From a virus (taxonomy: Duplodnaviria; Caudoviricetes), in IMG/VR virus record IMGVR_UViG_3300037454_001182, positions 15,204 through 79,203 of that record: 64,000 nt of DNA. One strand, written 5' to 3'. A model generated the notes under the pieces. That model was not told where the DNA came from. It did no database searches and worked only from the letters and a program-made list of their open reading frames with translations. Shown here piece after piece: positions 17 to 47,065 of this stretch (within the stretch, counting starts at the first letter, position 1; the number at the start of each line of letters is the position of its first letter). A program made the position numbers and the translations under genes.

Positions 17-3000
17 TCAAATTATATATCGTGAATACCATTTGTGGTCAGTTGCGTTATACACCAGAATCACACCATAAGCCTTAGAATAATAGGTGGT
101 CGTATCACCACTCCAACCGTCAGTCTCACTATGTGCCTCAACATTAGCAGGTAACACGACACTACCTTGTCCGAGGAAATTACTATATGCTATCAGATTT
201 GAGTGCCGGATAACATCTGAACCAGAGGCAGCTATTGTTACATTAGCCGTATTGTCACTTATAATCGTGAACTGTTGGCCAGTCACGGCATCAGTCGGAA
301 GTGTTACCGTGTATGCAGAACTACCCTCGCATAAGATGATGCTGTCAGTCTTTAGGACTGTGTATGCAGAACTTATCTTAGTGAGTTTCTTGATAAGCCC
401 ACCCTGCAAAGATGTTTTGCCCTGTGATTCAATAGCCGTTGGGCCGTAGGCAATAATTGCCGCACGTCCAGATGCCATCGTGGTTGCAAAGATGCAGTAT
501 GAACTATCATTCATCATGTAGAGGTTGGCATTTCTGGCCAACTCTTGCTGACTGGTTGACATGATGGTGTAAGAATCTCCAAGGAGACCAAAACGCAACA
601 CACCATTATCAGCATAGAAGTAATCTCCACTGATAACCAGATTTCCGAACTTACCACTTGAAGCCGTTACCTTACCTGCTATATCTGCATCGGTAGCCTT
701 TAGCGTTCCTGTGGTCGGGTCAATGGAAATCTTGTTTGTCACCGTTCCATCGGAACTCTCAAAGGAAACCTTATCTGCACGAAGTTTGATGATTCCAGTA
801 GTGATGTCAATACCTGTTGTCAACAGGTTATTCTTTGACATGATTTCTGCAACCAGGGGGCAGACACCACCCAGAACGATACCAACGGCATAGATTCGCC
901 AACTACCCATGACGTGACAGATTCCAACCGTAGAGCCTAAAGCACTGGTCATTCTCTTTGTGGCATAATACTTACGCCAACCATTGCCCAAATCAACGAA
1001 TGGCGAATTGATGGTATCTACGACTATCTGTGTGCCGGAATCATCATAGCCGAAGCACAACCTACTCGGAACCAGAGTACCACCGCTATTCTGGACGTAA
1101 GTCTCATTACTGGTAGCAAGGTTCTTACATATCACATAGAATGTGGCATCGTTTCCAGTCAGCAAAGAAAAGTTGGTTCTGCGAGTAAACAACAACTGCC
1201 AGTGGCCATTGACATTATGGCTCACCTGCAACACCTTTCCGAAAGTTCCATCTGTCACCTCAGACGATGTGAAGTCTGCATTTTCTTCTTTGGTGCCAGT
1301 AACGGCCAGAGGATTCACGATGAAGTTATCCAGACCGTTGCCATCACTTTCCTCTGGAACCCATGAAGTGGCCACACTTCCCTCTTCAACCTTATACCAG
1401 AGAATTGTCACAGGGTATGTGCGAGTACCAGAGTTGCCAGTGCCGTTTGCTCCACCCTCTTCGTTGGTGTCATATAGATAGGATTCTATTTCATAGGTCG
1501 CTGTCTTATCTGCTGTGAATGATACGGATGCAGTTCTGGCAGCACCGCCATTCTTGGTGATGTTAAACGACCTGCTCCATGCCCAACTATAACCAATCTC
1601 GCTTGTCGTACTTGCTTCAGTGGAATCCTTTCTACGGTAGATGAACACTTTCAGCACCATGTTTGAGGGCAGCGAGGTTGGAACTATGCCACTTGCTGAC
1701 AGCGTGTAACTCTTACCTGCCTCCAGTTTCAGAGTGCGCTTTCCGAAGCCATACGCATTACTGGTTTCATTGATGATGGAGTGAGGCAGCAAGTTCGGGC
1801 CATAACCCTTTACACCTGCTACGGCATTGGATATTGCCAGACTGATTGCGTCACCTGCAGTAATGTTCACTTGGTCACCATCAATCTTCACACCGCTCTG
1901 AATCTTATACCCACCATTGCCATCACTCACCTTGGTTACGAATGTTCCCAAATGAGCCTGTGCAAGAATGTTACCGTCTGCATCGGTAGCCTGTGAGAAA
2001 AGTGTTGCCCAATCGGATGAGGTGATGAACCCACTCGAATTGACCACACCATTAGCGGATGCCATAGCCACGGCACGGATATAGCCAGGGAGATTCTGGA
2101 TAACGCTGTGATTCGATTCTTGCAGAACCTCCCAATCAGAACCGTTGTACATTCTGATAAAGATACCACCCTCAACCTCTCTGTTTGCATCACCAACAGG
2201 GAAATTGGTATCTGTGAAAGTTATCTGGGAACAGAGAATGTCATACAGTTTAGGAGTGACCAACGAGGGCTTCAACCTAAAGATTCGGATGGTATAAGTT
2301 CCAGTCAGTTCATACACGGACTTGAACACGTTCTGGAAGAGGTCGTTTTCGATAGTAACCCAACTACCACTCTCAAAACGCTTCACCACGTTAGTATTGG
2401 CACCGTAGGCCATATCACCATTGGCATTTGCCGTACTCGGTATGGTTGCACCAAGGTAGATATTGACGTACTGGTTTATGCTCTTGTCACGGATATATCC
2501 ACCATCGTAAGTATAGACCATGTTCGCCATTGATGCAAGCAACAGACGTGGGTCTCTCTTCTCTGTGATGTCCTTTAGGTTGGCCCAATAATTGCTGACA
2601 GTGTAGCTATTGTTTCCAGAGGCAAGTGCCGTAGTACACACCATCATTTCGTTGGTGTCTGACTGCAACCACAAATCACCCACCTTGAACGGAGGCGTAG
2701 GGGGTGTGTTGGATGAAGACACAAAGTAGGACACATGAGAGACGGATATTGCAGCGACCAAATCAGAACGCTCTTTGTAGTAATTGCTCCAGATAGTCTT
2801 GAAGAGGCTACCACTGATAGCCGTATCACCACTGGCAACGAGAATACTGCCAGCCATTGTGTTGTAAGTGACGTGCCTGTTGGTCGTGCTGTCTGTCTTG
2901 TCATAGAGGTAGTTACCCAGACGATAGAAAGCGTTGGTGTATGCAGAAGAATCTACATGGGTCTTGTTAGCCTGTGCGATAATCTTTTCATATTCATTGT

Positions 3001-6000
3001 ATGCTGCATCCCATTCACGAAGCACGGTCAGTTTCTCAAAGGGTGTCAGAATGTTATCGGCTGCAAGGTTATCCAACTCTCCGAGGGCATCATCACCAGA
3101 CTTCTTAGCAACGTCCACAAACAGGTCTTGAAGTGCGGTACGCTTGTTATAGTACCCATCCCAAGCGGCGTTGAAGTCCAACTTTTGCTGTGCTGTCAAC
3201 GTCTCTGTTCTGGTGAGGTATGTACCTAACCATGAGGGCGTAGGAAAGTTGGCAGGTGTGTTACCACTCGCAAACGAATACTCATAGGTGGTTCCACCAT
3301 TCAACAGGGTAGCCAGAGTATTGAACGCTGTGATGTACTGCGATGAGGCTGTCTGCAACTCTGTTTTCATCGTACCACTTTCAAGCGCATTGGTGTATGT
3401 GTTTGACTGCGATATGAGTACAGGGTATTCAGTCACCACCTCGCGCCAGTTCAAAAGGAGCGTGTTCTTTTCAGCAGGTGTTATCTTGCCATCGGACACT
3501 ATATCATCCAGTCTGTGAAGTGCATCATCGGCCAGAGCCTTTGAATACTCTGCAAAGTCATTCAACAGCTTAACACTCGCATAGTAGTAGGTATTCCAGA
3601 GTTGGCGGTACTTGGTAGCGGTGTATGCAACAGAGGAACTTCCATCGGTGTATGAGTAATTGCCAATCACCGTGTTTGCTTGCAGGTCTCGCAACCACAA
3701 CAACTGCTGACCATTATACAAAAGGACGGTTCTGTTGGTAGCGTCTTTGTTCACCTCTTCTTGACCGCCTCCGTATGTGCCACCATTCAGCATGAGAATG
3801 AGCGCGTCAAAGGCACTCTCAAAAGCGGCCTCATCTTGATAGTAGCCGTATTCCCTTGATGCGTGGTCTTGATTTCCAAACGTTGTGAATCCGTAGGCCG
3901 TAGCCCTTGCCACATAGTCGAAATACTCTTCTTTGGTACGCATCCACTCCTTATAGAGTTCGCTCTTTTCTGTGCCTCCACTGATGATGCCATCGGACAC
4001 TATATCATCTATGAGGTCTTTTGCCTTTTCTGGGAGTGCATCAACGAAAGTAGCCAGAGCGCTATAATAATTTGCCCACCTCTCCCTGTATGTTACAGGG
4101 CTGTTGATGGTGGTGTCTGCATACAGGTTTGCGAACCATGCAGGGGTGAGATAGATGCCGTTGCTGTCTTTGCCTAAATCGCTCCAGTTATTCAGCATAT
4201 TGGCCAGAGCAAGGAAAGCAGCATGATAGGCGTTCCACTCGGTAGTGATTCCGTAGTCAACGGCTCTCACGGCATACTCTTCATGTTCGCTCAACGCTTT
4301 CTTCCAGTCAACGAACACCCTTATCTTTTCGGCTCCACCTGTCAATACGCCATCACTGGCTACGTCTGCAATCTTTTCCAGAGAGGCCAAAGTGTCTGCG
4401 TCCGTAATCTCATCCCAATAGTAGGTGACAGTGCCGTTACTCTCTACTGCAATCCATCGCCATGCCCGGCCTCCAGTAGATGCAGGGGTGCGTGTGGTGT
4501 CGTAGAAAATATCCTGTGCGTGTAACGCTTTGAGTGAATCAGTAGGCCACTCGCTTGCAGGGTAGTTAGGTGTTGCACTCGGACTGTCCTTTGATGGAAG
4601 AGGTGCGCCAGAGCCAAACCAAATGTCAAACTTCTTATCGGCTTGATTCTTGATGTCATTCAGTTGCTCTATCAATGCCCTCAACTGGTCTTCGATGGTG
4701 TTGCCATCACCTGTATTGCCGTGGGTCTCATCCACGACTGAATGGAACTCGCCATAAATGACGTTCTTTGACGGTGACAACAGCAAGGTAGGGTCTGGAA
4801 GAGTGAAATGCTCCACACCAACACCCGAATACTCCATGATGGCAGGTGAACCCGCGCCCTCGACTTTGAGGTAGATAACACCCTGTCTGGCCGCATTAGT
4901 CCAGTTACCCATCTGTACGATGGCATCCTCTGCCTCTGGATATGCGCTACCTGCTTCATAGTCTGTGGAAACCATGTTGGATAAGTCCACATACTGATAC
5001 TGCTTTGAGGCCAATTCTGGGGCCTGTGGCTGCGTTTCTTGCAGTGATGGTATAATTCCTCTACCCACTGCCAAAACTCGCCTCCAGTAGCGTTTATTTG
5101 ACGTGTTGGAATGTACGCCAGAATCTATGTTGAATGTCTCACACAAGGCTTGGTCATTCGCTGCCCATCTGTTTTCTGTGGCTGTGGTGCCATCATCAGA
5201 GTACAGGTAGCAACGGAACTTCTTAACGAGGGGGATATTTGCGGCTGCTTTTGTCAGAACAACATCGCTTGCTCCCAACCACTCCACATAGTAGATTCGG
5301 CTTCCGGCTGCTGAGAAAGCATAGTTTCCACCGACATAGGAGATTTCTCTGATTTCCAGAGAGGCGAAGAAAGCCTTAACCCTCACCAACAGCTCATCGA
5401 CCTCTAACCGTGTCCTACGATTGCCGCCAATGGTCTTTTCTATCAGTTCAAAGCCTTTGCCGAAAAGGTTATCCTCGTTGGCTGCTCCATACGTCTGATA
5501 GTCTTTGGTCTGAACGCCTCTTCTCTGGCCATTGCCAGGATTGAACGTCCAAAGGGAACTGATGCTATCATCCCTGTCTTTACGAGCAAACGACCGCTCT
5601 GTTTTCAGTGCGGAATAGACGTTGCCATCACTTGGCTCTGTATCTTCATTCGTGGTGATGATGTAGATGTTTGAACTGCCACCATAGGCGATGTAGTTAC
5701 TGCCTTGGTAGTTGATGGCATCCATGGCCTCATTGATTTTGGCCTCGGTGTCTCTCTTACTGGAATAGGTGGCACTCTCACCGACATAGATAACAGCACC
5801 ATCGTAGGGCATATCCATCTTATACTCGAAGCCTATCACCCTCGAATTGCGACTGCCACCCTCAAAGAAGTTGTCATTGACCAGACAGATGCGCTGACCC
5901 AATGGGAATGAGCCGACCTTGGTATATGTAGAATCTTGATTGCCGGAACGATCAAGACCAAACATATAATCGGCCATCATCTTACATGGATATACGTTGG

Positions 6001-7315
6001 GGTCTGTGTGGAGTTTCTGCGCATACTCCTGTGTTCTGGTCAGCACCTCATTCTCTGCGGCTGTCACCAGTCCTAATCCAGATTGAATCTTCTTTACGTT
6101 CCAACCCAACAGGACAAATGAGTTAGCCCTTGCAGGTTTCAGTGTCTCGTTTGGAAGATAGAGGCCGTAGGTCTCATTGCGGACAATCTCAAACCACTGT
6201 GAATCTGGATTGACTGCACCGTTCACTTTATCTGGCTCATCGTCTGGATTGAAAGCAAGGTCGAATATCATGCCATTCAATGCACCACTCTGGAACTGCA
6301 CTTGAAGATTCTGGCCGGGCAATATGTAATCCTTTGAGAACTCGAGAGACGAACACTTGAACCGATAGATGGGCACGGTAATGGTGGCGTTCTCATCGTC
6401 TGAGGTCTCATCCTTTACCTCGCGCATATCAGTTTGCAGGTCGGTAATCTCACAGTCCATGTGAGGGTACACATCATCGAATATGACAACTCCCTCGACT
6501 ATCTCATCATCGGAAAGGCCATTGACAATATCCACATACGGAGTGGCCTCTGGCAGCATGACGCGCTTCTGTACCACTCCGTTCATAAGTACCTGCTCAT
6601 CATTCTGGCGGTAGTCAGGCGGTATGTTCCTGTCTGAACCAAAGGCGTAGAGACGTGTGATATACTCCTGTTCGCTCTTCTCGCTGCCCATATCCTCGAC
6701 ATTCACGCCAACCTCGAAGTTGACAGCGGAACCAGTCTCACACTTGCCGAAGTGGATAACGCTATCCTCAATCCACCATTCACATTCAAAGGCTTCAGCA
6801 ATCTGGGTCAAAGCATCCAACAGGTACTTGTTATTGTACTGGATGAAGATGTTACGACTGGCTGATTCGATGGTGTACGATGCAGGGTCAACGGTGTAGT
6901 TCCATCCGTAGAACTCCAGATTACGGAGGAACACCGCCATGTGGTTTTGCAGTTTGTCAGTCAGTGACCAGTTAGCCTCATTCCTGTGTGTGGATGGCTC
7001 AAACTTGAACAGCTTGTTATTCCATTTGTAGTGAGGTGCGTCAAACTGAAGGTCATAGTTATAGCCTCCAGTAGAGGCGTTAAACGTGGGCTTCTGGGGT
7101 TTCGTTATCTCAAAGCGGCCTCTCAAAGCAGGGTCAAAGTCCTGCCCTATCTGGATATAGTCACCGAGAGAGACAGCGAACTTATTGGACGTTGTGAATA
7201 CCAGGCGCACATAATCCTCTTTCATCAACTCGAACTTGCGAACTGATGAAGCCTCGAATACGGCTGAATGTTTCACCGTGCCGTTTCTTCCTACTATGTC
7301 TATTGTTGCTGCCAT
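17..7315 (-). CDS. Large tail spike/fibre (host-specificity) protein, 2432 aa
   Basis: Follows the tape measure and distal-tail genes. N-terminal ~550 aa resemble Bacteroidetes phage tail-hub proteins; four internal DxxSDGxxTxxEK...W repeats; CBM-like GPNLL...KVEEGSVATSW segment; C-terminal fibre-type motif. Confidence 0.8.
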   Translation of the reverse strand: MAATIDIVGRNGTVKHSAVFEASSVRKFELMKEDYVRLVFTTSNKFAVSLGDYIQIGQDFDPALRGRFEITKPQKPTFNASTGGYNYDLQFDAPHYKWNNKLFKFEPSTHRNEANWSLTDKLQNHMAVFLRNLEFYGWNYTVDPASYTIESASRNIFIQYNNKYLLDALTQIAEAFECEWWIEDSVIHFGKCETGSAVNFEVGVNVEDMGSEKSEQEYITRLYAFGSDRNIPPDYRQNDEQVLMNGVVQKRVMLPEATPYVDIVNGLSDDEIVEGVVIFDDVYPHMDCEITDLQTDMREVKDETSDDENATITVPIYRFKCSSLEFSKDYILPGQNLQVQFQSGALNGMIFDLAFNPDDEPDKVNGAVNPDSQWFEIVRNETYGLYLPNETLKPARANSFVLLGWNVKKIQSGLGLVTAAENEVLTRTQEYAQKLHTDPNVYPCKMMADYMFGLDRSGNQDSTYTKVGSFPLGQRICLVNDNFFEGGSRNSRVIGFEYKMDMPYDGAVIYVGESATYSSKRDTEAKINEAMDAINYQGSNYIAYGGSSNIYIITTNEDTEPSDGNVYSALKTERSFARKDRDDSISSLWTFNPGNGQRRGVQTKDYQTYGAANEDNLFGKGFELIEKTIGGNRRTRLEVDELLVRVKAFFASLEIREISYVGGNYAFSAAGSRIYYVEWLGASDVVLTKAAANIPLVKKFRCYLYSDDGTTATENRWAANDQALCETFNIDSGVHSNTSNKRYWRRVLAVGRGIIPSLQETQPQAPELASKQYQYVDLSNMVSTDYEAGSAYPEAEDAIVQMGNWTNAARQGVIYLKVEGAGSPAIMEYSGVGVEHFTLPDPTLLLSPSKNVIYGEFHSVVDETHGNTGDGNTIEDQLRALIEQLNDIKNQADKKFDIWFGSGAPLPSKDSPSATPNYPASEWPTDSLKALHAQDIFYDTTRTPASTGGRAWRWIAVESNGTVTYYWDEITDADTLASLEKIADVASDGVLTGGAEKIRVFVDWKKALSEHEEYAVRAVDYGITTEWNAYHAAFLALANMLNNWSDLGKDSNGIYLTPAWFANLYADTTINSPVTYRERWANYYSALATFVDALPEKAKDLIDDIVSDGIISGGTEKSELYKEWMRTKEEYFDYVARATAYGFTTFGNQDHASREYGYYQDEAAFESAFDALILMLNGGTYGGGQEEVNKDATNRTVLLYNGQQLLWLRDLQANTVIGNYSYTDGSSSVAYTATKYRQLWNTYYYASVKLLNDFAEYSKALADDALHRLDDIVSDGKITPAEKNTLLLNWREVVTEYPVLISQSNTYTNALESGTMKTELQTASSQYITAFNTLATLLNGGTTYEYSFASGNTPANFPTPSWLGTYLTRTETLTAQQKLDFNAAWDGYYNKRTALQDLFVDVAKKSGDDALGELDNLAADNILTPFEKLTVLREWDAAYNEYEKIIAQANKTHVDSSAYTNAFYRLGNYLYDKTDSTTNRHVTYNTMAGSILVASGDTAISGSLFKTIWSNYYKERSDLVAAISVSHVSYFVSSSNTPPTPPFKVGDLWLQSDTNEMMVCTTALASGNNSYTVSNYWANLKDITEKRDPRLLLASMANMVYTYDGGYIRDKSINQYVNIYLGATIPSTANANGDMAYGANTNVVKRFESGSWVTIENDLFQNVFKSVYELTGTYTIRIFRLKPSLVTPKLYDILCSQITFTDTNFPVGDANREVEGGIFIRMYNGSDWEVLQESNHSVIQNLPGYIRAVAMASANGVVNSSGFITSSDWATLFSQATDADGNILAQAHLGTFVTKVSDGNGGYKIQSGVKIDGDQVNITAGDAISLAISNAVAGVKGYGPNLLPHSIINETSNAYGFGKRTLKLEAGKSYTLSASGIVPTSLPSNMVLKVFIYRRKDSTEASTTSEIGYSWAWSRSFNITKNGGAARTASVSFTADKTATYEIESYLYDTNEEGGANGTGNSGTRTYPVTILWYKVEEGSVATSWVPEESDGNGLDNFIVNPLAVTGTKEENADFTSSEVTDGTFGKVLQVSHNVNGHWQLLFTRRTNFSLLTGNDATFYVICKNLATSNETYVQNSGGTLVPSRLCFGYDDSGTQIVVDTINSPFVDLGNGWRKYYATKRMTSALGSTVGICHVMGSWRIYAVGIVLGGVCPLVAEIMSKNNLLTTGIDITTGIIKLRADKVSFESSDGTVTNKISIDPTTGTLKATDADIAGKVTASSGKFGNLVISGDYFYADNGVLRFGLLGDSYTIMSTSQQELARNANLYMMNDSSYCIFATTMASGRAAIIAYGPTAIESQGKTSLQGGLIKKLTKISSAYTVLKTDSIILCEGSSAYTVTLPTDAVTGQQFTIISDNTANVTIAASGSDVIRHSNLIAYSNFLGQGSVVLPANVEAHSETDGWSGDTTTYYSKAYGVILVYNATDHKWYSRYII

Positions 7316-7317
7316 TA

Positions 7318-7713
7318 TTAACGGTTGTTAGGGTTATACTCTCTCAGTCTCAGAACGAACTTTCCAACGCCACGCATGAACTGGCTGAACTGCTGACAGG
7401 AAAGATAGAGGCAATGGTACGTTGAACCAAGCACGCCTATATCGACCTTACCAGTCTTTAACTCCGCACACAAAGCGGCATATCTGGTTAGGAACTCTGA
7501 TTCATTCGCGCCATACACTCCGAGATTCAGAGTGAAGTCACGATAATTCACATAGGCGGCATCCTCTGTCACCACTCTTACACCATGCTCCAAACGGCTT
7601 GAACTCTGCACCCTGTCTTTCATCGGTGGTGGTGTCAGAAGTTGACCGACCGAACTCTCATCAAGGTAGATACCTGCCAGAGTTTTGCTGTTTATCGTTA
7701 CTGCTACTGCCAT
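7318..7713 (-). CDS. Putative distal tail (Dit-like) protein
   Basis: 131 aa between tape measure and tail spike; position is typical of Dit. Confidence 0.6.
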   Translation of the reverse strand: MAVAVTINSKTLAGIYLDESSVGQLLTPPPMKDRVQSSSRLEHGVRVVTEDAAYVNYRDFTLNLGVYGANESEFLTRYAALCAELKTGKVDIGVLGSTYHCLYLSCQQFSQFMRGVGKFVLRLREYNPNNR

Positions 7714-7714
7714 A

Positions 7715-10700
7715 TTATTTCGTCTGGGTTACTATTTTGTCTAACTGTTGCTCGAACTTCTGATAAGCCTTTTTGTTGGCTTCCAGAATGTCCTCAAGGA
7801 ATGCGTTATTTGTTATCATCAAGTTTCGTATTTCTACGAGTGTCAGATTACGACCGTCTGCAAGAGCGGATAAGGCTGCAAGGGTCGTGACCATCGAAGT
7901 GATGCCCTCGCTGATTCTCTCACCTGACATCTGGAGTGCGGTAAAACGTCCATTCAGTTCATCGGCTGTGTCTTGGCCCATGGAACTCCAACCGCCAGTA
8001 GATACGTTCTGCTCGTAGGGGTCTTTGTTGGACTTTATCATTCCAGAGGCTTGCATATTCTCACGCCATGCCAGAGACTTGTCTGAAATGGCTTGGTTCA
8101 TCTGCTCTATTCTGGCTTTCTCTGCGGCATCAATCATTCCATCCTCTGAGGCTTTAGCGATATAGTCATACAGTGCCTTAATATCATCTTTCAGTGTCTC
8201 ATTCACGAAACTCTCAACAAGGGCGTTTGTGATAAGTTCCTGTATGTGGTCTGCGAAATCCTCTGTTGTGCTATCCAGATTCTTCAACATGGACTTATAG
8301 GAATCCATGAAGCCATCCCACGAATAGCCAGTCAACTTCTCATTGAGTGCCGATGTCAGTTCATCAATCTTGCCAGAACGAGCGATATACTCATTCACCA
8401 AATCCTGTGGGTTACGGTGGCCATCGGTAGAGAAAAGTTCTGCCCATCTGGTAGGAGCGAAATCACGGAGCAACTGCATTTCCTCTGGGGTGAGGTTCCA
8501 CATACTACCTGCGCTATTGACCGTACTCGAATAGCCATGCTCACGCAAAATCTGGTTGAACTCATTCCAACCTGCCCATCCGCTGCCCTGTGAGTTGGCA
8601 TTGAATGAGTGTTTACCACCGAGGCCCAGGAATCCATAACCGCTGTTAGCATACTCTGATGCCCTGTCATTGATAGCCCTGCGTTGGTTGGCCTCCCAAT
8701 CCCTTTCAGCATCAAGAGCCTTGCGGTATGCTTCAACGGATTCTTTGTTGGTAGAAGTGGAATCACTAATCTTACTTGCCAACTTCTCAATGGAATCAGA
8801 AAGAATCTCATTCACTCTTGCCAGTTCGGCAATTTCTTTTTCCATTTCATCCTCATTGCCACGACCTGCAAAGATATTGATTCCCATTCGAGCAAACCCG
8901 GCCACTCCATCCAGAACACCGTTAATGGCACCGAACACATCACCCTTTGCAAGCGCACCGATGGCAGAAGTGAAACCATTCACGCCATCTGCGAACCCAT
9001 GCACGGCTTGACCGAAATCGGTATTCTCAACCCCAATCTTATCAATGAAGTCTGCCATGCTCTGGCTGTTCTCGTTGATGAGGTTGATAATGCCCATTGC
9101 TCCACCTCCTTGACTGCTTACTGCGTTCTTGAAGATGTCACCGATGGAACTGCCGGACAACATCGCATTGGCATTAGACACCTTTTTCTGGGCGTTAGAT
9201 GTATCTTCCATCGCTTCGCCCAAATCAGTAGTGGCTATCTGCAACTGGTCGAAAGCCTCTGACAGTCTTTGCCCTGCCTCGCTTGTCTCATCTATGCCGT
9301 ACAACTCGAAGATGTCAAGTTTCTGGTCTGGCGTGACTGTGTTCAAATCGAGGTCAACGTGCATGTCTTCACCGACAACCTCATGTATCTGGTCAATGAT
9401 AGCAAGCTGCAACCCTGTGACCACATCCATTGCCTCTTGCTGCTCACGGAGTTTTCTATTATACTCATCCTGTGCCTCTGCTGCGGCTCTGGTCAGTCTC
9501 TCACGCTCTTTCAAAGCAGGTATGAGTGAACTCCAGACGTTGGTACGCTCACTAATCTTATCCTCAATCTCCAGAATCTTCTCAGCCAACAGTTTTGCGT
9601 TCTCTGGTGAAATGTCTTTCATGTCGAGTGCGGCCTTTAACTTGGCTTTCAGTTGACGAAGTGCTTCAGTAGATTGTCTGTCAAGATTATCAAACAGCGT
9701 TTCCCAGTCGATAGAGTTCTGTAACTCTGTCATATCCAGTTCCGCAATGAGACGGTCACGCTCTTTTTCGAGCGCGGCTTTCTGGATGGCATCTTGCTCC
9801 TTGGCTATCTTGTTAGCATACTCGGCTGCAATGGCGGCTTTCTGGTCTTGGATGGAACCATACTCTTTGATGTAGTCATAGAGGTGCTGCAAATCCTCTT
9901 GCCTCAGATTTTCCAGTGCGCGATTGTGTTCAACCTCGGCTGCTCTCAGTCGCTCACGATAGTTTGCGGTCTCAGCATCGGTATAGTCAGTATTGACGGT
10001 GCTTTCATCGAAAGCCTTGCCCTTGTTATCTGGGTTAGCCTCCCACAACTGGCGAGCCTCATCAATCTTCTTTTGTCTGAGGTCTGCGTATGCACGTTCT
10101 ATTTCCTCTTTCTGTCTTTCAAAGTCAAGATTGATTTGGGCTGCTTGTTTACGGCTACCCTCTTCCATCGCGTCAATGGTGGCTTGGGTAGTGGCAAACT
10201 CCATGTCCTTTGCAGCACGTTCACGGTCGAGCCTCTGTCTGCGCAACAGGTCTTGGTATTTCTGTTCCTGTTTGATGCGCTGCGCCCTCTCATTTGCGGC
10301 TTGCCTGTCACTATTCTTAGATTTGGTAGAGACATCACCACCTACTGCGGCAAAGGCATCCTTGGCGGTGGATAACTCCGACTGTGCGGCAATTCTTTCC
10401 TCTTTGGTGTACTTGCTACGATTGGCATCTATCTCTGCAAGTTTCTTTATGGCTGCATCATAGCGAGATTTGGCTGCATCGTATTCCTGTTGAAGTGAGG
10501 TTGCACCACCCTCTACGGTCTGCGCTGTCAGTCCATTCAGTTTAGCCAGGGCGGCGTTTAACTGCATCTGGAGAGTAGTCCAGTTGAACTTGAACTGTGC
10601 ATTAAGAAAGAAGTCCACTTGATTACTACCGTCACTCTCGGCTTTCTCCTTGATGCCTTTGAGTGCGTCCAGAATCTTTTGCTTCTCAGTCAACTCCAGA

Positions 10701-13315
10701 TTCAACTTTTCATCAATGGGGTTTTCGGCTTGCCTCTGGCGTAATTCATCCAGTTCTGCCTCTGCCTCTTCGATGAAAGCCTCTAACCGGGTCTGGCCTG
10801 TCTCAAAATCTATCTGCTCATTAGCCTCTTGCCAATGCTCAGTCATATCTTTTGCCCGAGAATAGAAGTCAACGATGGACTGTCTGACTTCTGCGTTATC
10901 TCTGGCCTCTTGGATTCGGATTTCAATAGGGGTATTTTCCTCACGGATTCTGGCCTGTAATTCCTCATACTTTTGCACCTGCTCTTCCCATATTTTCAGT
11001 TGAGCCTCTGCACCAGGCAAACGCCTCTTTGCGGTGACTTGACTGTTGGAACCAGTATATTGTGACTGATACATCGCTGTCAAAGATGGTGTACCATCAC
11101 CAATCTCTGCCTTTAAGTCAGCAACTACTTTACGGTACTCTTCGACCTTTTTCTTGGCCTCTTCATACTCTTGCTCTTCCAGTTCTTTGTTGAGTTCTCT
11201 CTGGCCATCGGCTGCACCCAGAGCGGCTAACTGCTGTTGGGTGTACTTGTCTGTGATGTCTGGAACGAGAGTTTTCAACTCATTGTAGGCGGCTAACTGT
11301 GCAAGTTCTGTCTGGTTCTTATCCTGTATGGTACGGAGTAACCCCTGCACCTTATCCCTGCGCTCTTCATTGAGTTTGTTCTGCTCTTCCATCGCCTCAT
11401 TAGCCTTGCGAGTGGCTTTCTCTGTCTCTGATTCAGCGGTACAGAGTTTATACACTAAATAGGTCACACCTACAATGGCCGCACCCATCCAGAATATAGG
11501 GGATGCGAGGAACGAGGCATTAACGGCATCAATGGCTTTCTTCAATGTGAGTTTAACCCCTGCGAGTATTCCAGTGGCCGTTGCATCGGCTCCCTGTGCT
11601 GCGGTATCTACTACGGTTGCGGCACTATTGGCCATCTTTGAAGTGGTCTCTGCCTTTGCTGCGGCTGCGGCTGCAACCTCTCTTGCTGCCATCAATTCCT
11701 TGGCTACACTGTTCCTGTTGGATGCTGCGGTATTCAGTTCCAACTCTGCGGATTCAATGGCTGTCTGGTTCCCAGATTGAACGGCTGCGGCATATTTGGC
11801 TTCTGCGGCTGCTACGGCTGTTTCTGCCTCTTCCAGTCTCAACGCTATCTGCGCTGAAATGGTAGTGGATTCATTGAAAGCGGCCTGTGCCTCTGCGGCC
11901 TGTGCCTGTAAGTTCGCAAGGTGGGCTGCTGCCTCTTCACGCAATGAGGTGATGAGGGCTGCTTTCTCTGGTGTCAGTCTGCCCTCTGCCACGGCAATCT
12001 CGATGTCACTTTGGGCTTCGGCTTGCTTCAACGGTAGGATGGTTTGCAGTTGCGCAATCTCGGCCTCATACGCGGCATTGGTGGCCGCAACCTCACTACT
12101 GGCAACGAGGGAGTTTTTCAGTCCATTTGCTGCCAACATTCCGCGATAGGTGGCGTAGGCTGCAATGAACAATTCCAGAGTAGTCAAGGCCGACTGCATA
12201 CTGCCATTGTCGAAAGCCTCATTCATGCTCTCTGCGATACTCTTACTCATTGAACGAATCTCATCACCAATAGGCATGAAGTACGCAAAGATGTTATTGC
12301 GTAGTCTGGTAGTGGCGTTCCCTGCGGAGTCAGCCATCTTCTCATAAGCGGCTGTGGCTGCACCTGTGGAGTTTTTCATATCCTCGAAGTCCTGACGTGC
12401 TGATGCGGCATTCTCACCAGTGAGTGCCAGAACAGCATTCATGGCTTGTAGTTTTGACAGGTCACTCTTCAAAGCGGATTCAGAACCCTTGGATTTCTCA
12501 GCCACCTCATCCATCGCTTCAAGGAAAGTTCTACTCTTGAAAGCACCATCACCCAGAGAGTTTGTAGTGGCCGTGATAGCATCGCGTACTTGACGGATGG
12601 CAATACCTGTCTTTGTTCCAGATTTGGTGAGTGATGCGACTGCGGCCAGAACATCTTCAATGGCAACTCCATACGCTGCGGCTATTGGTGTCACCTGCGC
12701 AATGTACGATCCTAATTCTCCGTAGGTAGTCTTACCGAGTTTGACAGTGGTAAACAGCAGGTCATTGACGTGCGCGGCTTCCTCTGCACTCATCTTGTAT
12801 GAGTTCAAGATGGTAGTGATGGCATCTGCGGCTATGGCCGTTTCAGTAACGCCACCAATGGCACCCTTGGCAGATTCTTCAAGAACCCTCAAACCATCGG
12901 CTCCATGATGTCCGGCAGATTCAATCTGATAGAGTGCCTTTGCTGCCTCTTCTGGGGCAATGGCTATCTCGGTACAGAGTTCTACGACCCTCTGTTTGTA
13001 TGATTCAAGATTATTGGTGACATCTTCAGACAGGGTGCTAACTTCTTTCATGGCGGCTGAGAACTTGCCCATGTCGCTATACAGGGTCTTGATGAAGTTC
13101 CCAGATTCCATTAACGCGGTCAGTCCGGCCACACCTGCAGCCAGTTGTTTCACTCCACCCAAAGCGGATGAGGTGACACGTTGGAACATGGATTCAATAC
13201 TGTTGCCGCTTTTCTCAACAGCATTCTCCATACGCTTCACTCCCTGCTGCACTCCATTGAAAGAATCCAGTACGTTTCTGTTGTCACCTGTTATGTCGAA
13301 TTTTATACCTGCCAT
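7715..13315 (-). CDS. Tail tape measure protein (TP901-type N-terminal core), 1866 aa
   Basis: Long Ala/Glu-rich helical protein; N-terminal motifs such as AKGAIGGVTETAIAADAITTILNSY and TVKLGKTTYGEL; position after the chaperone gene. Confidence 0.93.
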   Translation of the reverse strand: MAGIKFDITGDNRNVLDSFNGVQQGVKRMENAVEKSGNSIESMFQRVTSSALGGVKQLAAGVAGLTALMESGNFIKTLYSDMGKFSAAMKEVSTLSEDVTNNLESYKQRVVELCTEIAIAPEEAAKALYQIESAGHHGADGLRVLEESAKGAIGGVTETAIAADAITTILNSYKMSAEEAAHVNDLLFTTVKLGKTTYGELGSYIAQVTPIAAAYGVAIEDVLAAVASLTKSGTKTGIAIRQVRDAITATTNSLGDGAFKSRTFLEAMDEVAEKSKGSESALKSDLSKLQAMNAVLALTGENAASARQDFEDMKNSTGAATAAYEKMADSAGNATTRLRNNIFAYFMPIGDEIRSMSKSIAESMNEAFDNGSMQSALTTLELFIAAYATYRGMLAANGLKNSLVASSEVAATNAAYEAEIAQLQTILPLKQAEAQSDIEIAVAEGRLTPEKAALITSLREEAAAHLANLQAQAAEAQAAFNESTTISAQIALRLEEAETAVAAAEAKYAAAVQSGNQTAIESAELELNTAASNRNSVAKELMAAREVAAAAAAKAETTSKMANSAATVVDTAAQGADATATGILAGVKLTLKKAIDAVNASFLASPIFWMGAAIVGVTYLVYKLCTAESETEKATRKANEAMEEQNKLNEERRDKVQGLLRTIQDKNQTELAQLAAYNELKTLVPDITDKYTQQQLAALGAADGQRELNKELEEQEYEEAKKKVEEYRKVVADLKAEIGDGTPSLTAMYQSQYTGSNSQVTAKRRLPGAEAQLKIWEEQVQKYEELQARIREENTPIEIRIQEARDNAEVRQSIVDFYSRAKDMTEHWQEANEQIDFETGQTRLEAFIEEAEAELDELRQRQAENPIDEKLNLELTEKQKILDALKGIKEKAESDGSNQVDFFLNAQFKFNWTTLQMQLNAALAKLNGLTAQTVEGGATSLQQEYDAAKSRYDAAIKKLAEIDANRSKYTKEERIAAQSELSTAKDAFAAVGGDVSTKSKNSDRQAANERAQRIKQEQKYQDLLRRQRLDRERAAKDMEFATTQATIDAMEEGSRKQAAQINLDFERQKEEIERAYADLRQKKIDEARQLWEANPDNKGKAFDESTVNTDYTDAETANYRERLRAAEVEHNRALENLRQEDLQHLYDYIKEYGSIQDQKAAIAAEYANKIAKEQDAIQKAALEKERDRLIAELDMTELQNSIDWETLFDNLDRQSTEALRQLKAKLKAALDMKDISPENAKLLAEKILEIEDKISERTNVWSSLIPALKERERLTRAAAEAQDEYNRKLREQQEAMDVVTGLQLAIIDQIHEVVGEDMHVDLDLNTVTPDQKLDIFELYGIDETSEAGQRLSEAFDQLQIATTDLGEAMEDTSNAQKKVSNANAMLSGSSIGDIFKNAVSSQGGGAMGIINLINENSQSMADFIDKIGVENTDFGQAVHGFADGVNGFTSAIGALAKGDVFGAINGVLDGVAGFARMGINIFAGRGNEDEMEKEIAELARVNEILSDSIEKLASKISDSTSTNKESVEAYRKALDAERDWEANQRRAINDRASEYANSGYGFLGLGGKHSFNANSQGSGWAGWNEFNQILREHGYSSTVNSAGSMWNLTPEEMQLLRDFAPTRWAELFSTDGHRNPQDLVNEYIARSGKIDELTSALNEKLTGYSWDGFMDSYKSMLKNLDSTTEDFADHIQELITNALVESFVNETLKDDIKALYDYIAKASEDGMIDAAEKARIEQMNQAISDKSLAWRENMQASGMIKSNKDPYEQNVSTGGWSSMGQDTADELNGRFTALQMSGERISEGITSMVTTLAALSALADGRNLTLVEIRNLMITNNAFLEDILEANKKAYQKFEQQLDKIVTQTK

Positions 13316-43857: not shown

Positions 43858-44276
43858 TAACTTTTCTTTGAGTAGTTCCTACGCTTATTGTAGGCATGGA
43901 GTTTTGAACGGTATGGTGGCACTGGTGGCTCTGGAGCCTCAACCAGAGGAATGAAATCAATCAATGGCGGTTCTGGCAGCTTAGTCAAAACATACACTTG
44001 GTTTTCCATTTCTGCCACCTCGATAGCATCGTATGTCTCAGTATCAATCTGAACACAGACATCAACAGTCTGCAATTCGGTGTCTGGGGCTATCCTCTGG
44101 GCGTGTGCCTCTAATTTGGTCTCAATCTCAGAGGGTGACAGCTTGCCATCGTTCACGTCATAGATGAACTTGCACAGGCTCTTATAGCCCTCACCGACAC
44201 ACTTACGGCCTCTCAGTGGATTGTAGGCATATACCTTACCAATCTGGAGTTTGATATTGAAAGTCAACTCTGCCAT
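43827..44276 (-). CDS. Hypothetical protein
   Basis: 149 aa. Confidence 0.6.
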   Translation of the reverse strand: MAELTFNIKLQIGKVYAYNPLRGRKCVGEGYKSLCKFIYDVNDGKLSPSEIETKLEAHAQRIAPDTELQTVDVCVQIDTETYDAIEVAEMENQVYVLTKLPEPPLIDFIPLVEAPEPPVPPYRSKLHAYNKRRNYSKKSYWNRIRSRLF

Positions 44277-44848
44277 TATACCAGTTCAAATGAATAGGCG
44301 TACACTAACGGATTATCAATCCAAGTATTGCGACCACACACCTTATTGATGAGGTGATGGAACGCCTCTCTGGGAGTACCCCAACACTCTTCACAGTTCG
44401 GATAGGTGTAGTAGTCACCATCTTCAACATCGTAGCCCTTGATGATACCCTCGGCCAGACAATCCTCATCCGAAATATCCTGCAGACATTCCACCTTGAT
44501 TCCAGTAATGCGGATTGAGTGAGGCATCAACTCGGCTTTGACATACATCTTATTTGTCACTCCGATGTGATTCTCTTCGACCAGACGAATGACCTCATTT
44601 TCCAATCTGGGTGGCAGGTACTCCGCTTCCAGAATGTCCTTATACCTCTGACCGATGGCCACGACCTCACCGACCTTGAAAGGCGAATGTGCAAGCATGT
44701 ACTCATCACGCTTGGCGATGTCACCACCTGCATAGGTCATGGCATCAACAACAAGCCTGTTTGGAATTGACCTGCGCGTATTCCATTTGTCTTTCTTCAG
44801 CACGGCTTGATGAAGTCCCTGCTCTTCGGAAAACATTATCTTTCTCAT
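44276..44848 (-). CDS. ASCH/PUA-like domain protein
   Basis: K.NTRR, RITGIKVECLQDISDEDCLAEG, W..NP.V.AYSF pattern. Confidence 0.7.
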   Translation of the reverse strand: MRKIMFSEEQGLHQAVLKKDKWNTRRSIPNRLVVDAMTYAGGDIAKRDEYMLAHSPFKVGEVVAIGQRYKDILEAEYLPPRLENEVIRLVEENHIGVTNKMYVKAELMPHSIRITGIKVECLQDISDEDCLAEGIIKGYDVEDGDYYTYPNCEECWGTPREAFHHLINKVCGRNTWIDNPLVYAYSFELV

Positions 44849-45123
44849 ACCTCCTTGATTTCAAACAGGTGGAACACCAACATTCCGTTACGCATCTGGA
44901 TAGTTCCGATGTAGTTCAACTTTCTGGCTTCATCAGTAGAAATGTCATGGCCAGTTCCGGCCAATCTGAACTTTCTCACCTCTGCCTTGTTATCTGGATT
45001 CACCAAAGCCCAGATACACGGCATACCATTCTGAACCTGCACCGTCAGAATCTCAGCATTTTGCGGTAAGGTGACAGACTGGTAATCTGTCACCTCGATA
45101 GGATATTTGAACACTTTCATCAT
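44845..45123 (-). CDS. Conserved phage hypothetical protein
   Basis: VFKYPI...LP..AEILTVQVQ...GTGH...YIGT.Q..G.LVFHLFE. Confidence 0.7.
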   Translation of the reverse strand: MMKVFKYPIEVTDYQSVTLPQNAEILTVQVQNGMPCIWALVNPDNKAEVRKFRLAGTGHDISTDEARKLNYIGTIQMRNGMLVFHLFEIKEV

Positions 45124-45134
45124 TGCCTTGCCTC

Positions 45135-45719
45135 CTACTCGCAGAAAATGAAGTCCATATATTCAGCAAGGAACTGTTGGCCCGCGTACTCCGCTAACGC
45201 TCTATTTTTGAAGCAGAGGCGACCGCCGCCGTACGTGCTCGAGAACGACGAAGCGTTACTCGTGAGCGACAAAGCGACACCCGCATTCGCACTCGCGCTG
45301 TTGTACGAGCGACCGAGAACGCGGATTCCCTTTTTGTCCTCTTCATCCATACCGTCCAGTTCCTCCTGTGTGTAGAACACGAACCAAGGGAAATAGCGGT
45401 ATTCATCCTCAGTAAAATTCGGCTTCCATCCCTCATTGAGAGCTTCAACAATAGTCTTTAGTTTGATGTAGGCCACCTCATCCTTTTCGAGAAAACAACG
45501 GCTGTTGTCAATCGGTGAAGAATAGCGCAGGTCGTGGAAGTTTACAGGCTGAATACCGAGGACTTTGCAAGCATCCTCATACGTCTTTACCCTCTCTGTG
45601 ATAGGCAGCAGGGAATCCAGACCATCAACCTGTACGTCATGCTTACGCATGAGTTCCATCATTTCTTTTGCAAACACTTGTGCCTTATCATCTGGCACGA
45701 TCAGTTTTAACTCTTTCAT
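45135..45719 (-). CDS. Hypothetical protein with DGR-type variable-repeat-like C-terminus
   Basis: GRSYNSASANAGVALSLTSNASSFSSTYGGGRLCF, encoded by alternating TCG/GCG/ACG and NNC/NNT codons. Confidence 0.75.
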   Translation of the reverse strand: MKELKLIVPDDKAQVFAKEMMELMRKHDVQVDGLDSLLPITERVKTYEDACKVLGIQPVNFHDLRYSSPIDNSRCFLEKDEVAYIKLKTIVEALNEGWKPNFTEDEYRYFPWFVFYTQEELDGMDEEDKKGIRVLGRSYNSASANAGVALSLTSNASSFSSTYGGGRLCFKNRALAEYAGQQFLAEYMDFIFCE

Positions 45720-45766
45720 TGCTCTATGAGTATTTAATATACGCAGGGCGGTTACTCCTGCAAATC

Positions 45767-46018
45767 CTATAAATCAATATCAAAGCCCATATCAGACAGG
45801 GCAAGGATAACGGCTACTGGCAATTCATAGATACCATCGTAATCTATCACAGTGTTGCCATCAGTGACATAGTTTCCACAAACGTAGGTATCATCGTCAT
45901 TGTCTTTCTCCCATTCCCAACTGTGGGAACTCGGAGTGATTGCTACCCACACATCATCATCATCAAAATAGAAGTGATGGATGCCGTCATTATCAACGTT
46001 TCTTCTGGTGATATTCAT
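45767..46018 (-). CDS. Acidic hypothetical protein
   Basis: 83 aa, AGAGCA-ATG start. Confidence 0.65.
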   Translation of the reverse strand: MNITRRNVDNDGIHHFYFDDDDVWVAITPSSHSWEWEKDNDDDTYVCGNYVTDGNTVIDYDGIYELPVAVILALSDMGFDIDL

Positions 46019-46030
46019 TGCTCTTATATT

Positions 46031-46264
46031 TTATAGTTCTACTGGTATGGATTTGCCTGTTAACCTTTCAAGTGCGACTAAGACATTCCATCCCAAATTT
46101 GTCTGTATTTGCTGCATCTTTTCGTGATGCTCCATTGCCTTATTACGGTAGGTTTCACTCTCTTGCCTTTTGGCAAAGTAGTAGTTGAAACTCTTAACGT
46201 GGTCGATGTATTCATCAAGAACTTCTTGATTTACATTTACTGTCACAATTACTGGAAAACTCAT
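46031..46264 (-). CDS. Hypothetical protein
   Basis: 77 aa, AGAGCA-ATG start. Confidence 0.65.
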   Translation of the reverse strand: MSFPVIVTVNVNQEVLDEYIDHVKSFNYYFAKRQESETYRNKAMEHHEKMQQIQTNLGWNVLVALERLTGKSIPVEL

Positions 46265-46672: not shown

Positions 46673-47065
46673 TTATTGTTCATTCATTCTTGCTTGCCCA
46701 TACTCTCTACTCCATTGCTTTGTGACTTTCTCGCGGTCAATTCCAGTGAGTGCCTGGCTGAAACGCTCAGTGATGAAAGCACCGTAAAGAATGGTATTCT
46801 TATTCAACTTCATGCCGTTAGGGCAAAGACCGTTGGCATATCTACCATATTGCATATAGATGTTACGGTCAGCAGATGGAATGTAGTTTACTCTCTGACC
46901 ATCCTTTTTCATTGCCACTTCCCAATGGGAGCCGGTATAGGTCTTACTGCTCATCCAGTTATCTTGCGTATAACTGTCAGATTCAGATACGAGCCTTGCG
47001 ACAATCTCATAATGTCCGCAATCGCTCTGCAAGTAGATGTACCTTGTTTTGATATTCGATTTCAT
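46673..47065 (-). CDS. Hypothetical protein
   Basis: 130 aa, AGAGCA-ATG start with a 17-nt match to sRNA-2. Confidence 0.7.
   Translation of the reverse strand: MKSNIKTRYIYLQSDCGHYEIVARLVSESDSYTQDNWMSSKTYTGSHWEVAMKKDGQRVNYIPSADRNIYMQYGRYANGLCPNGMKLNKNTILYGAFITERFSQALTGIDREKVTKQWSREYGQARMNEQ

What the first reader, a model, noticed from the sequence alone, without database searches (positions are those of the whole stretch)
45185..45325. DGR variable-repeat signature in a non-structural gene, with no template or RT in the window
Seen: codons CTC GGT CGC TCG TAC AAC AGC GCG AGT GCG AAT GCG GGT GTC GCT TTG TCG CTC ACG AGT AAC GCT TCG TCG TTC TCG AGC ACG TAC GGC GGC GGT CGC CTC TGC TTC. Invariant-looking TCG/GCG/ACG codons alternate with NNC/NNT codons, in contrast to the rest of the gene. 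Known: DGR template repeats encode AAC/AAT at these positions and adenine-specific mutagenesis yields such NNY codons; G..N..AG.....N..S.....G.RL is the C-type-lectin VR pattern. Inference: a remote DGR target in the early/middle region rather than the usual tail fibre, diversified in trans by an RT elsewhere in the genome or host. The gene also has an AGAGCA-ATG start.
Basis: partly seen in the sequence, partly recalled or inferred. Interest (0 to 1): 0.8.

Follow-up and report, generated by a model that had tools for sequence, protein, structure and literature searches.

The report
Remote second DGR target, small early gene
A small non-structural gene of this Bacteroidota prophage is rewritten by the phage's own mutagenic retroelement, which lies 55 kb away outside the window; the finding is correct, but this arrangement in this protein family is already published for gut Bacteroides phages and the protein's job is still unknown.

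Summary
The 194-aa gene at window 45135-45719 (minus strand) carries a 113-nt variable repeat, VR2, at 45212-45324. The template repeat (TR), an intact reverse transcriptase (RT) and a first variable repeat (VR1, at the end of a 2166-aa tail-module protein) lie on the same 79.2-kb prophage, at genome 3.8-12.2 kb, outside the window.

- **Adenine specificity:** 15 of 16 TR/VR2 mismatches and 12 of 12 TR/VR1 mismatches fall on TR adenines.
- **Hypervariability:** across 34 homologues, the 15 codons with a TR adenine at position 1 or 2 have a mean entropy of 2.34 bits. The 20 adenine-free codons have 0.06 bits.
- **Recurrence:** the same unnamed family (phrog_11581, no Pfam) is a DGR target in every lineage where a template was sought and found. 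These are a 72-kb relative, three 50-65-kb phages with two targeted paralogues each, LoVEphage/Quimbyvirus, and Pedobacter and Chitinophagaceae prophages. In the last two it sits directly beside its own TR and RT.
- **Location:** wherever neighbouring genes were named (four lineages), it lies in the early, replication or methyltransferase region.

Benler et al. 2021 (PMC8008677) described this distal non-structural target. A 2025 Nature paper (PMC12629997) reports four more such prophage species. This scan has also noted it on at least 21 other genomes. It is therefore a new member of a known kind. A C-type-lectin fold could not be confirmed, and the function remains unknown.

The parts
45135..45719 (-). 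Gene for the 194-aa DGR variable protein 2 (family phrog_11581, no Pfam family, no signal peptide seen in the N-terminus)
   Evidence: ORF. phrog_11581 matches at E 1e-45 and Pfam gives nothing. There are 1563 homologues and 2864 clusters at 50% identity.
45212..45324 (-). Variable repeat VR2 (113 nt, codons R133-C169), cognate to the TR at genome 5440-5552 (L002, minus strand)
   Evidence: blastn of the region against the whole genome. Of 16 mismatches to the TR, 15 are at TR adenines. Entropy is 2.34 bits at the 15 adenine codons and 0.06 bits at the 20 adenine-free codons.
45210..45230 (-). G+C-rich 3' end of VR2 (GGCGGCGGTCGCCTCTGCT followed by TC), the inferred IMH-like homing boundary. 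VR1 has the same TC where the TR has AA.
   Evidence: Three-way alignment of TR, VR1 and VR2. A role as IMH is inferred from the BPP-1 paradigm and was not tested.
45717..45725 (-). AGAGCA-ATG start-codon tag, which earlier notes of this scan say is shared with about 22 early-type genes of this phage
   Evidence: Read directly from the sequence. The genome-wide count comes from unchecked notes e1-5871043 and e1-5871031.

Best explanation
The gene encodes a second, remote variable protein of the prophage's own diversity-generating retroelement (DGR). The cassette sits at the left end of the prophage, in L002 coordinates on the minus strand: a 2166-aa tail-module target whose 3' end carries VR1 (5656-12156), the TR (5440-5552), a spacer of about 220 nt, and a 451-aa RT (3862-5217).

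Inferred mechanism, from the BPP-1 paradigm: the TR is transcribed, and the RT copies it into cDNA while misincorporating opposite template adenines. The cDNA then replaces any DNA segment that shares the TR's ends and the G+C-rich 3' boundary. Two such segments exist, VR1 and VR2, so one template rewrites both genes whatever the distance between them (55 kb when integrated, about 24 kb if the record's ends join on circularisation). In VR2, twelve AAY codons plus one TAT and two ACG codons are randomised, giving about 8e15 possible peptides without creating stop codons.

The product is most likely a soluble, early-expressed, non-virion protein. Its well-predicted, mainly helical scaffold presents a hypervariable segment of about 30 residues that binds a variable ligand in the phage-host conflict.

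Shown: the repeat relationship, adenine specificity, the intact RT motifs, family-wide hypervariability, and recurrent targeting with an early-region location in other lineages. Inferred: current activity, the homing mechanism, cytoplasmic location, and the ligand. My odds are about 0.95 that this is a true DGR target, about 0.8 that it is still being diversified, about 0.65 that the role is non-structural, and about 0.3-0.4 that the role is specifically counter-defence or exclusion.
For: - TR, VR1 and VR2 are the only copies of the repeat in the genome.
- Mismatches are 15/16 and 12/12 at TR adenines.
- The RT matches RVT_1 at E 1e-15 and is an uninterrupted 451-aa frame. Read, it contains IGLRSSQ and YCDD, the DGR-type motif-4 and catalytic boxes.
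- Consensus of 45 homologues: RVLGRSxxxAxAxAGVAxSxTxxASSxSxxxxGGRLCF, where each x falls on a TR codon with an adenine at position 1 or 2.
- Entropy is 2.34 bits at the adenine codons and 0.06 bits at the adenine-free codons. The 93%-identical protein P0002 differs at 11 of the 15 adenine sites but at only 3 of the other 179 residues.
- Homologues are targeted by their own TRs, with mismatches at TR adenines in these proportions: G001 11/13; G002 11/12 and 16/17; G003 14/14 and 18/18; G005 14/14; LoVEphage 19/19.
- In Pedobacter and Chitinophagaceae prophages, tandem paralogues of the family sit directly upstream of a TR and a short RT. In Ferruginibacter and an uncultured Bacteroidetes MAG an RT is likewise adjacent, but no TR was aligned there.
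- Early or non-structural context: HNH endonuclease and MazG-like pyrophosphatase; three DNA methyltransferases, DnaD-like loader, helicase, Sak4 and NinG.
- The same kind of context holds in LoVEphage, phage Versailles and a Mu-like Pedobacter prophage beside a phrog_116 methyltransferase.
- Published precedent: PMC8008677 and PMC12629997.
Against: - No reads or near-identical genomes were available, so ongoing diversification in this particular prophage is not shown.
- One TR/VR2 mismatch is T>G at a non-adenine, which hints at some ordinary drift.
- No Avd-type accessory gene was found.
- No strong hairpin follows either VR.
- The fold of the VR segment is unpredicted (pLDDT below 50 for residues 134-162) and no C-type-lectin or other solved fold was matched.
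- Nothing tested here shows where the protein goes or what it binds. A virion-associated role is not excluded by gene position alone.
Confidence: 0.9

Rival explanations
1. VR2 is a relic. It was written by the DGR in the past but is no longer a homing substrate, or the element is now inactive in this prophage. On this view the pattern is historical and the protein is now fixed.
For: There is one non-adenine change (T>G at repeat position 55), which DGR mutagenesis does not normally produce. No Avd accessory gene is detectable. In relatives, some paralogues are visibly decaying: L015 10715-11248 has a 7-nt deletion inside its VR, and two of the three Pedobacter paralogues are frameshifted.
Against: The RT frame is intact with its catalytic motifs. 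Both ends of the repeat and the 3' G+C-rich boundary are perfectly conserved between TR and VR2. The ORF is intact. Near relatives at 81-93% identity differ mainly at the adenine-encoded sites, which implies recent rewriting in this lineage.
Confidence: 0.15
2. The protein is a virion-associated accessory adhesin, for example a small decoration or tail-tip lectin. It is encoded away from the structural module but assembled onto particles, so VR2 broadens receptor or mucus binding as VR1 does.
For: Known phage DGR targets are overwhelmingly receptor-binding proteins (PMC10743442 abstract). VR2 shares one template with a tail-module protein. Weak PHROG hits to a 'tail protein' family cover the VR segment, and a homologue in phage Versailles is annotated 'tail protein'.
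Against: The tail-family hits cover only about 40-50 residues, essentially the shared VR segment. In the four phage lineages where neighbours were named, the gene lies among replication, recombination or methyltransferase genes, never in the structural block. In the Mu-like Pedobacter prophage it has a dedicated RT in the early region. It carries the start-codon tag that earlier notes restrict to early-type genes. No fusion to a recognisable structural domain was found among longer family members.
Confidence: 0.2
3. The codon pattern is chance or compositional: a Ser/Ala/Asn-rich low-complexity stretch, or similarity from recombination with the tail gene, with no retroelement involved.
For: The region is compositionally simple.
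Against: A 113-nt repeat 86% identical to a TR next to an RT, with mismatches almost only at TR adenines, is not expected by chance (about 1e-8 by my estimate). VR1 and VR2 differ from each other only at TR-adenine positions plus position 55, which recombination would not produce. The same relationship recurs in the independent lineages examined.
Confidence: 0.01

Closest known systems
Distal second DGR target of Quimbyvirus / LoVEphage ('ORF 80/84' in Benler et al. 2021, Microbiome 9:78, PMC8008677; LoVEphage MW660583 protein QVQ57199.1)
   Same: It is a homologous protein: tblastn gives 40% identity over residues 44-192 at E 6e-18, and it is also 194 aa long. The VR is near the C-terminus and is written by the same TR that serves a tail-module target, with 19 of 19 mismatches at adenines. 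It lies in a non-structural region with DNA methyltransferases and other conflict-type genes.
   Different: The phage lineage differs: this TerL has no match above 32% identity in the phage collection, and LoVEphage is not among the 12 listed matches. The RT here is one intact 451-aa ORF, whereas in LoVEphage the RT matches are split over frames (PMC8008677). The VR sequence type differs: RVLGRS...GGRLCF here versus LVLWGG...GSRLAV there. The TR-VR2 distance is 55 kb in the integrated form.
[quoted passage not shown] 3c)
   Same: [quoted passage not shown]
   Different: That paper gives no family definition or function. I could not check whether those four targets belong to this family, because figures are not held.
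Bordetella phage BPP-1 DGR (mtd-avd-TR-brt), the experimental paradigm
   Same: It shares adenine-specific TR-to-VR information flow, a VR at the 3' end of the target ORF, a G+C-rich 3' boundary, and the order TR, spacer, RT.
   Different: BPP-1 has one target, a tail fibre adjacent to the cassette. It has an Avd accessory protein and a hairpin after the VR, and neither was found here. Here there are two targets, one of them remote and non-structural.
Two-target phage DGRs with tentaclins (Baykov et al. 2023, PMC10743442)
   Same: One TR serves two functionally different target genes in gut phages.
   Different: Both of those targets lie within the cassette. [quoted passage not shown] They are interpreted as receptor-binding proteins.

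Membership tests
Diversity-generating retroelement (DGR) target / variable repeat | A cognate template repeat exists and differs from the VR essentially only at template adenines | tested here: met
   The TR is at genome 5440-5552. Of 16 mismatches, 15 are at TR adenines for VR2, and 12 of 12 for VR1.
Diversity-generating retroelement (DGR) target / variable repeat | A DGR-clade reverse transcriptase lies next to the TR, with the motif-4 signature [ILV]GxxxSQ and a YxDD box | tested here: met
   RVT_1 matches at E 1e-15 in an intact 451-aa frame about 220 nt downstream of the TR. IGLRSSQ and YCDD were read in the translation. No phylogenetic placement of the RT was done.
Diversity-generating retroelement (DGR) target / variable repeat | The VR lies at the 3' end of an intact ORF, and the randomised codons cannot become stop codons | tested here: met
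   The VR covers codons 133-169 of 194. Enumerating all adenine substitutions gave no stop codon and about 8.3e15 peptides.
Diversity-generating retroelement (DGR) target / variable repeat | An IMH at the 3' end of the VR is distinct from IMH* in the TR | tested here: inconclusive
   The G+C-rich end is shared. Immediately after it both VRs read TC where the TR reads AA. Function as a homing signal was not tested, and no convincing hairpin lies downstream.
Diversity-generating retroelement (DGR) target / variable repeat | An accessory variability determinant (Avd or HRDC). This is common but, from general knowledge, not universal, so I do not treat it as defining | tested here: not met
   PF05635 and TIGR02436 gave no match in the 79-kb genome even at E 10. 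There is no room for such a gene between target 1 and the TR.
Diversity-generating retroelement (DGR) target / variable repeat | Observed diversification at adenine-encoded sites in natural variants | tested here: met
   Homologue entropy is 2.34 versus 0.06 bits, and P0002 differs at 11 of 15 adenine sites versus 3 of 179 other sites. This is between-genome evidence. Variation within a population of this prophage was not testable.
Quimbyvirus/LoVEphage-type distal DGR target family (phrog_11581) | Sequence homology over the whole scaffold to the published LoVEphage/Quimbyvirus second target | tested here: met
   phrog_11581 matches at E 1e-45 over residues 18-192. tblastn to LoVEphage records gives 38-40% identity over residues 42-192. 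The LoVEphage gene was verified as a VR target of its own TR.
Quimbyvirus/LoVEphage-type distal DGR target family (phrog_11581) | Location outside the structural module, among replication or DNA-modification genes | tested here: met
   for this phage, 59 for LoVEphage, 87 for Versailles and 83 for the Pedobacter Mu-like prophage.
C-type-lectin-fold DGR variable proteins (Mtd, TvpA, TaqVP class) | A CLec/FGE-like fold with the VR forming the exposed binding face | tested here: inconclusive
   AlphaFold2 with a 122-sequence alignment gave mean pLDDT 81 and a mainly helical scaffold, but pLDDT below 50 for residues 134-162. Foldseek against PDB gave nothing at E <= 0.001. The VIA-align wide search gave a best Z of 3.6. 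Profile searches against PDB sequences gave nothing, and Pfam gave nothing. Benler et al. report C-type-lectin domains by HHpred for the Quimbyvirus targets; I could not reproduce that here.

The most novel reading that the evidence does not exclude
The phrog_11581 family is a cytoplasmic, early-expressed 'antibody-like' module. A conserved helical scaffold, with invariant residues R43, K45, T46, D49, N95, E96 and W98, would dock onto a fixed partner. The DGR-randomised loop would recognise fast-evolving host immunity proteins or proteins of competing phages. On this reading Bacteroidota phages carry a self-diversifying counter-defence or exclusion factor, in some lineages with a DGR dedicated to it alone.
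Probability: 0.3. Interest if true: 0.75.

Novelty: new member of a known kind. Interest (0 to 1): 0.3.

Why it matters
DGR targets in phages are usually assumed to be receptor-binding tail proteins. A small soluble protein that is repeatedly kept under DGR control inside early, replication or methyltransferase modules points to a second use of targeted hypermutation inside the infected cell. That use has not been characterised. This locus adds another lineage to the published cases: the TerL is unrelated to LoVEphage, the RT is intact, and the prophage record is rated 100% complete. It could serve as a clean system for asking what the protein binds. It does not add a new principle.

Tried and rejected
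- **Nucleotide search against phage records.** Searching the locus found nothing.
- **Fold prediction and search.** A first AlphaFold2 run on a 45-sequence alignment gave pLDDT 63 and uninformative fold hits. The second model was better, but matched nothing in PDB by Foldseek or by VIA-align wide (best Z 3.6). In BFVD it matched only uncharacterised homologues.
- **Sequence and profile searches for the family.** Pfam on the protein, on 122 family members and on 10 longer fused members gave nothing meaningful. PHROGs on the fused members found only phrog_11581 plus VR-only hits. Profile searches against PDB sequences gave nothing, including for the C-terminus of target 1. ESM Atlas returned only unnamed viral clusters.
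- **Search for near-identical relatives.** Exact-pattern scans for VR2-type loci found none in viral or metagenome contigs.
- **Accessory features.** Avd searches were negative. Folding the DNA downstream of both VRs showed no BPP-1-like hairpin; the strong hairpin after the target-1 stop codon is about 50 nt from VR1 and looks like a terminator.
- **Whole-domain duplication rejected.** I considered that the similarity to the tail protein reflects a duplicated domain. BLASTP similarity between the two targets is confined to the 38-residue VR.

Full report
**Observation**

The quoted codons lie on the minus strand at window 45317-45210, inside an ORF at 45135-45719 that encodes 194 aa. The ORF starts with AGAGCA-ATG. 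It sits in a long minus-strand gene array, 12 nt upstream of the next gene and 48 nt downstream of the previous one.

The window is bases 15204-79203 of a single 79,203-bp virus record. IMG/VR classes it as a provirus, and CheckV rates it 100% complete.

**Template and reverse transcriptase**

A low-stringency blastn of the region against the whole genome gave exactly two further hits, on the same strand. They are at genome 5695-5809 (86% identity) and 5440-5552 (86% identity). An RVT_1 match (E 1e-15) lies at genome 4378-4965 in an open frame. The ORF there is 451 aa, at L002 3862-5217 on the minus strand. Its translation contains IGLRSSQ and YCDD, the motif-4 and catalytic boxes typical of DGR reverse transcriptases. 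That typicality rests on established knowledge, not on a test here.

The 5440-5552 copy is the template repeat (TR). It lies in no real gene, is rich in AAC/AAT codons, and is followed by a spacer of about 220 nt and then the RT. The 5695-5809 copy is VR1. It forms the C-terminus of a 2166-aa ORF (L002 5656-12156) that has no Pfam match. An integrase, an amidase endolysin and further very large ORFs flank the cassette, so it belongs to the tail/lysis end of the prophage.

Over the 113-nt repeat:
- TR vs VR1 shows 12 mismatches, all at TR adenines.
- TR vs VR2 shows 16 mismatches, 15 at TR adenines and one T>G at repeat position 55.
- VR1 and VR2 differ from each other only at TR-adenine positions, apart from position 55.
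- With 29 adenines in 113 nt, I estimate the chance probability at about 1e-8.

Just past the shared G+C-rich end, both VRs read TC where the TR reads AA. This is the kind of IMH/IMH* distinction expected for directional homing, but I did not test it. No Avd-like gene exists in the genome. No convincing hairpin follows either VR.

**Hypervariability in homologues**

A search found 1563 homologues of similar length. In an alignment of 45 of them the consensus reads RVLGRSxxxAxAxAGVAxSxTxxASSxSxxxxGGRLCF. Every x falls on a TR codon with adenine at position 1 or 2.

Among the 34 sequences with this VR type:
- The 15 adenine codons have a mean entropy of 2.34 bits (range 0.83-3.01).
- The 20 adenine-free codons have 0.06 bits.
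- The two codons with a third-position adenine have 0.19 bits.

The closest relative, P0002 (93% identity), differs at 11 of the 15 adenine sites but at only 3 of the other 179 residues. The TR can encode about 8.3e15 peptides with no stop codon.

**Recurrence in other lineages**

The family turned out to be a dedicated DGR scaffold.

- **G001, a 72-kb provirus.** It is syntenic with this locus, and its homologue shares 59% identity. That homologue matches a TR beside that phage's RT, with 11 of 13 mismatches at adenines.
- **G002, G003 and G005, records of 50-65 kb.** Each carries two paralogues about 3 kb apart. Both paralogues match the single TR beside the RT, which also serves a cassette-adjacent VR. 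In the five intact VRs that were counted, 11/12 to 18/18 mismatches fall at adenines. The second G005 paralogue has a 7-nt deletion inside its VR and was not counted.
- **LoVEphage (MW660583).** QVQ57199.1 is also 194 aa and shares 40% identity. It matches a TR next to an RT whose matches are split over frames, with 19 of 19 mismatches at adenines.
- **Pedobacter and Chitinophagaceae genomes.** Tandem paralogues sit immediately upstream of a TR and a short RT of 329-355 aa, so here the small protein is the primary target.
- **A Ferruginibacter MAG and an uncultured Bacteroidetes MAG.** An RT is likewise adjacent to the family gene, but I did not align a TR there.

One further record, G004 (rated 90% complete), had no RT match, so no template could be sought there. 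An exhaustive profile search counted 2864 clusters at 50% identity.

**Genomic context**

In this phage the neighbours are an HNH endonuclease, a MazG-like pyrophosphatase, three DNA methyltransferases, a DnaD-like loader, a helicase, Sak4 and NinG.

- In LoVEphage the neighbours include cytosine and adenine methyltransferases, radical-SAM proteins and RtcB.
- In phage Versailles they are SbcC-like, NinB and replisome-organiser genes. The homologue there is annotated 'tail protein', which I read as a VR-driven mislabel.
- In the Pedobacter element the genes lie between Mu-type transposition genes and a phrog_116 DNA methyltransferase.

In these four lineages, the only ones where neighbours were named, the gene lies outside the structural block. 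No signal peptide is evident in the N-terminus (my own reading). Longer family members carry no recognisable extra domains.

**Structure**

With a diverse 122-sequence alignment, AlphaFold2 gave mean pLDDT 81 and a confident, mainly helical scaffold (helices 10-27, 47-54, 79-94, 118-130 and 173-191). Residues 134-162, which are the VR, scored below pLDDT 50.

- Foldseek against PDB gave nothing at E <= 0.001.
- An exhaustive VIA-align search gave a best Z of 3.6.
- BFVD returned only uncharacterised phage homologues from sipho-, podo- and crAss-like viruses.

Similarity to target 1 is confined to the 38-residue VR. It is not refuted.

**What is already known**

Benler et al. 2021 described in Quimbyvirus a DGR with two targets. 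One follows the tail-fibre genes. [quoted passage not shown] They proposed a role in phage-host conflict (PMC8008677). The 2025 Nature paper cites the same work for LoVEphage and reports four induced prophage species with a distal second VR near counter-defence genes (PMC12629997).

I verified that the LoVEphage gene is homologous to the one here and is itself a VR. Roux et al. 2021 state that their survey could not detect remote targets (PMC8144416). Two-target cassettes of another kind, the tentaclins, are also published (PMC10743442).

After I had reached these conclusions, the scan's own index showed at least 21 earlier notes of the same phenomenon on other genomes, with the same closest-known assignment. 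It also held a note on this same stretch read from another window.

**Verdict**

The observation and the main inference are correct. The system is a genuine two-target DGR whose second target is remote and non-structural. It is a further member of a published kind, in a phage lineage distinct from LoVEphage by TerL.

Three things remain open: what the protein binds, whether it is ever in the virion, and whether this copy is being rewritten now. My best guess is an early cytoplasmic binding protein used in phage-host or phage-phage conflict, at roughly 0.3-0.4 for that specific role.

Noticed in passing
L002:3862-5217 (genome coordinates, outside the window): The DGR RT is 451 aa. The RTs beside the same target family in Pedobacter and Chitinophagaceae are 329-355 aa, and those in G002, G003 and G005 are 364 aa. 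The extra C-terminal residues (about 110) have no Pfam match, and no Avd exists in the genome, so the extension might substitute for an accessory protein.
   Followed up: no
L002:5605-5645 (genome coordinates): A strong G+C-rich hairpin, with a 9-bp core stem and a GAAA-type loop, lies just after the target-1 stop codon and before the TR. It is probably a terminator separating target-1 transcription from the TR RNA. VR2 has no counterpart.
   Followed up: partly
window 17-7315 and 7715-13315 (minus strand); L002:5656-12156: Three very large ORFs (2432, 1866 and 2166 aa) lie in this part of the prophage. Only the 2166-aa one carries a VR. A 2025 paper notes unannotated DGR targets of about 2000 aa in Bacteroidaceae temperate phages (PMC12694917).
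   Followed up: no
L015:10715-11248; L107:10160-11483: Some paralogues of the family are broken inside or just after their VR: a 7-nt deletion in L015, and two of the three tandem Pedobacter copies frameshifted. This could be decay of redundant targets, or assembly error at a heterogeneous VR.
   Followed up: partly
L109:4863-5444 (Bacteroides phage Versailles ON453897, WAK79127.1): The family member is annotated 'tail protein' although it sits among recombination and replication genes. The label most likely comes from VR-only similarity to phrog_5302.
   Followed up: partly
L029/L030 (LoVEphage MW660583, 48183-48768): The RT matches fall in two different frames with short open frames. This agrees with the published claim that the Quimbyvirus RT is encoded in overlapping frames. 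Its TR/VR mismatches are still 19 of 19 at adenines.
   Followed up: partly
window 44276-44848 and 44845-45123 (minus strand): The two genes immediately downstream of the VR2 gene (phrog_874, 190 aa, and phrog_3848, 92 aa, both of unknown function) overlap each other end to start. A homologue of the 190-aa gene is retained next to the target in the 72-kb relative G001.
   Followed up: no
window 45767-46018, 46031-46264, 46673-47065 (minus strand): Several neighbouring small genes also start with AGAGCAATG according to earlier notes. I confirmed the motif only for the VR2 gene, whose version is TAGAGCAATG rather than the AAGAGCAATG 10-mer.
   Followed up: partly
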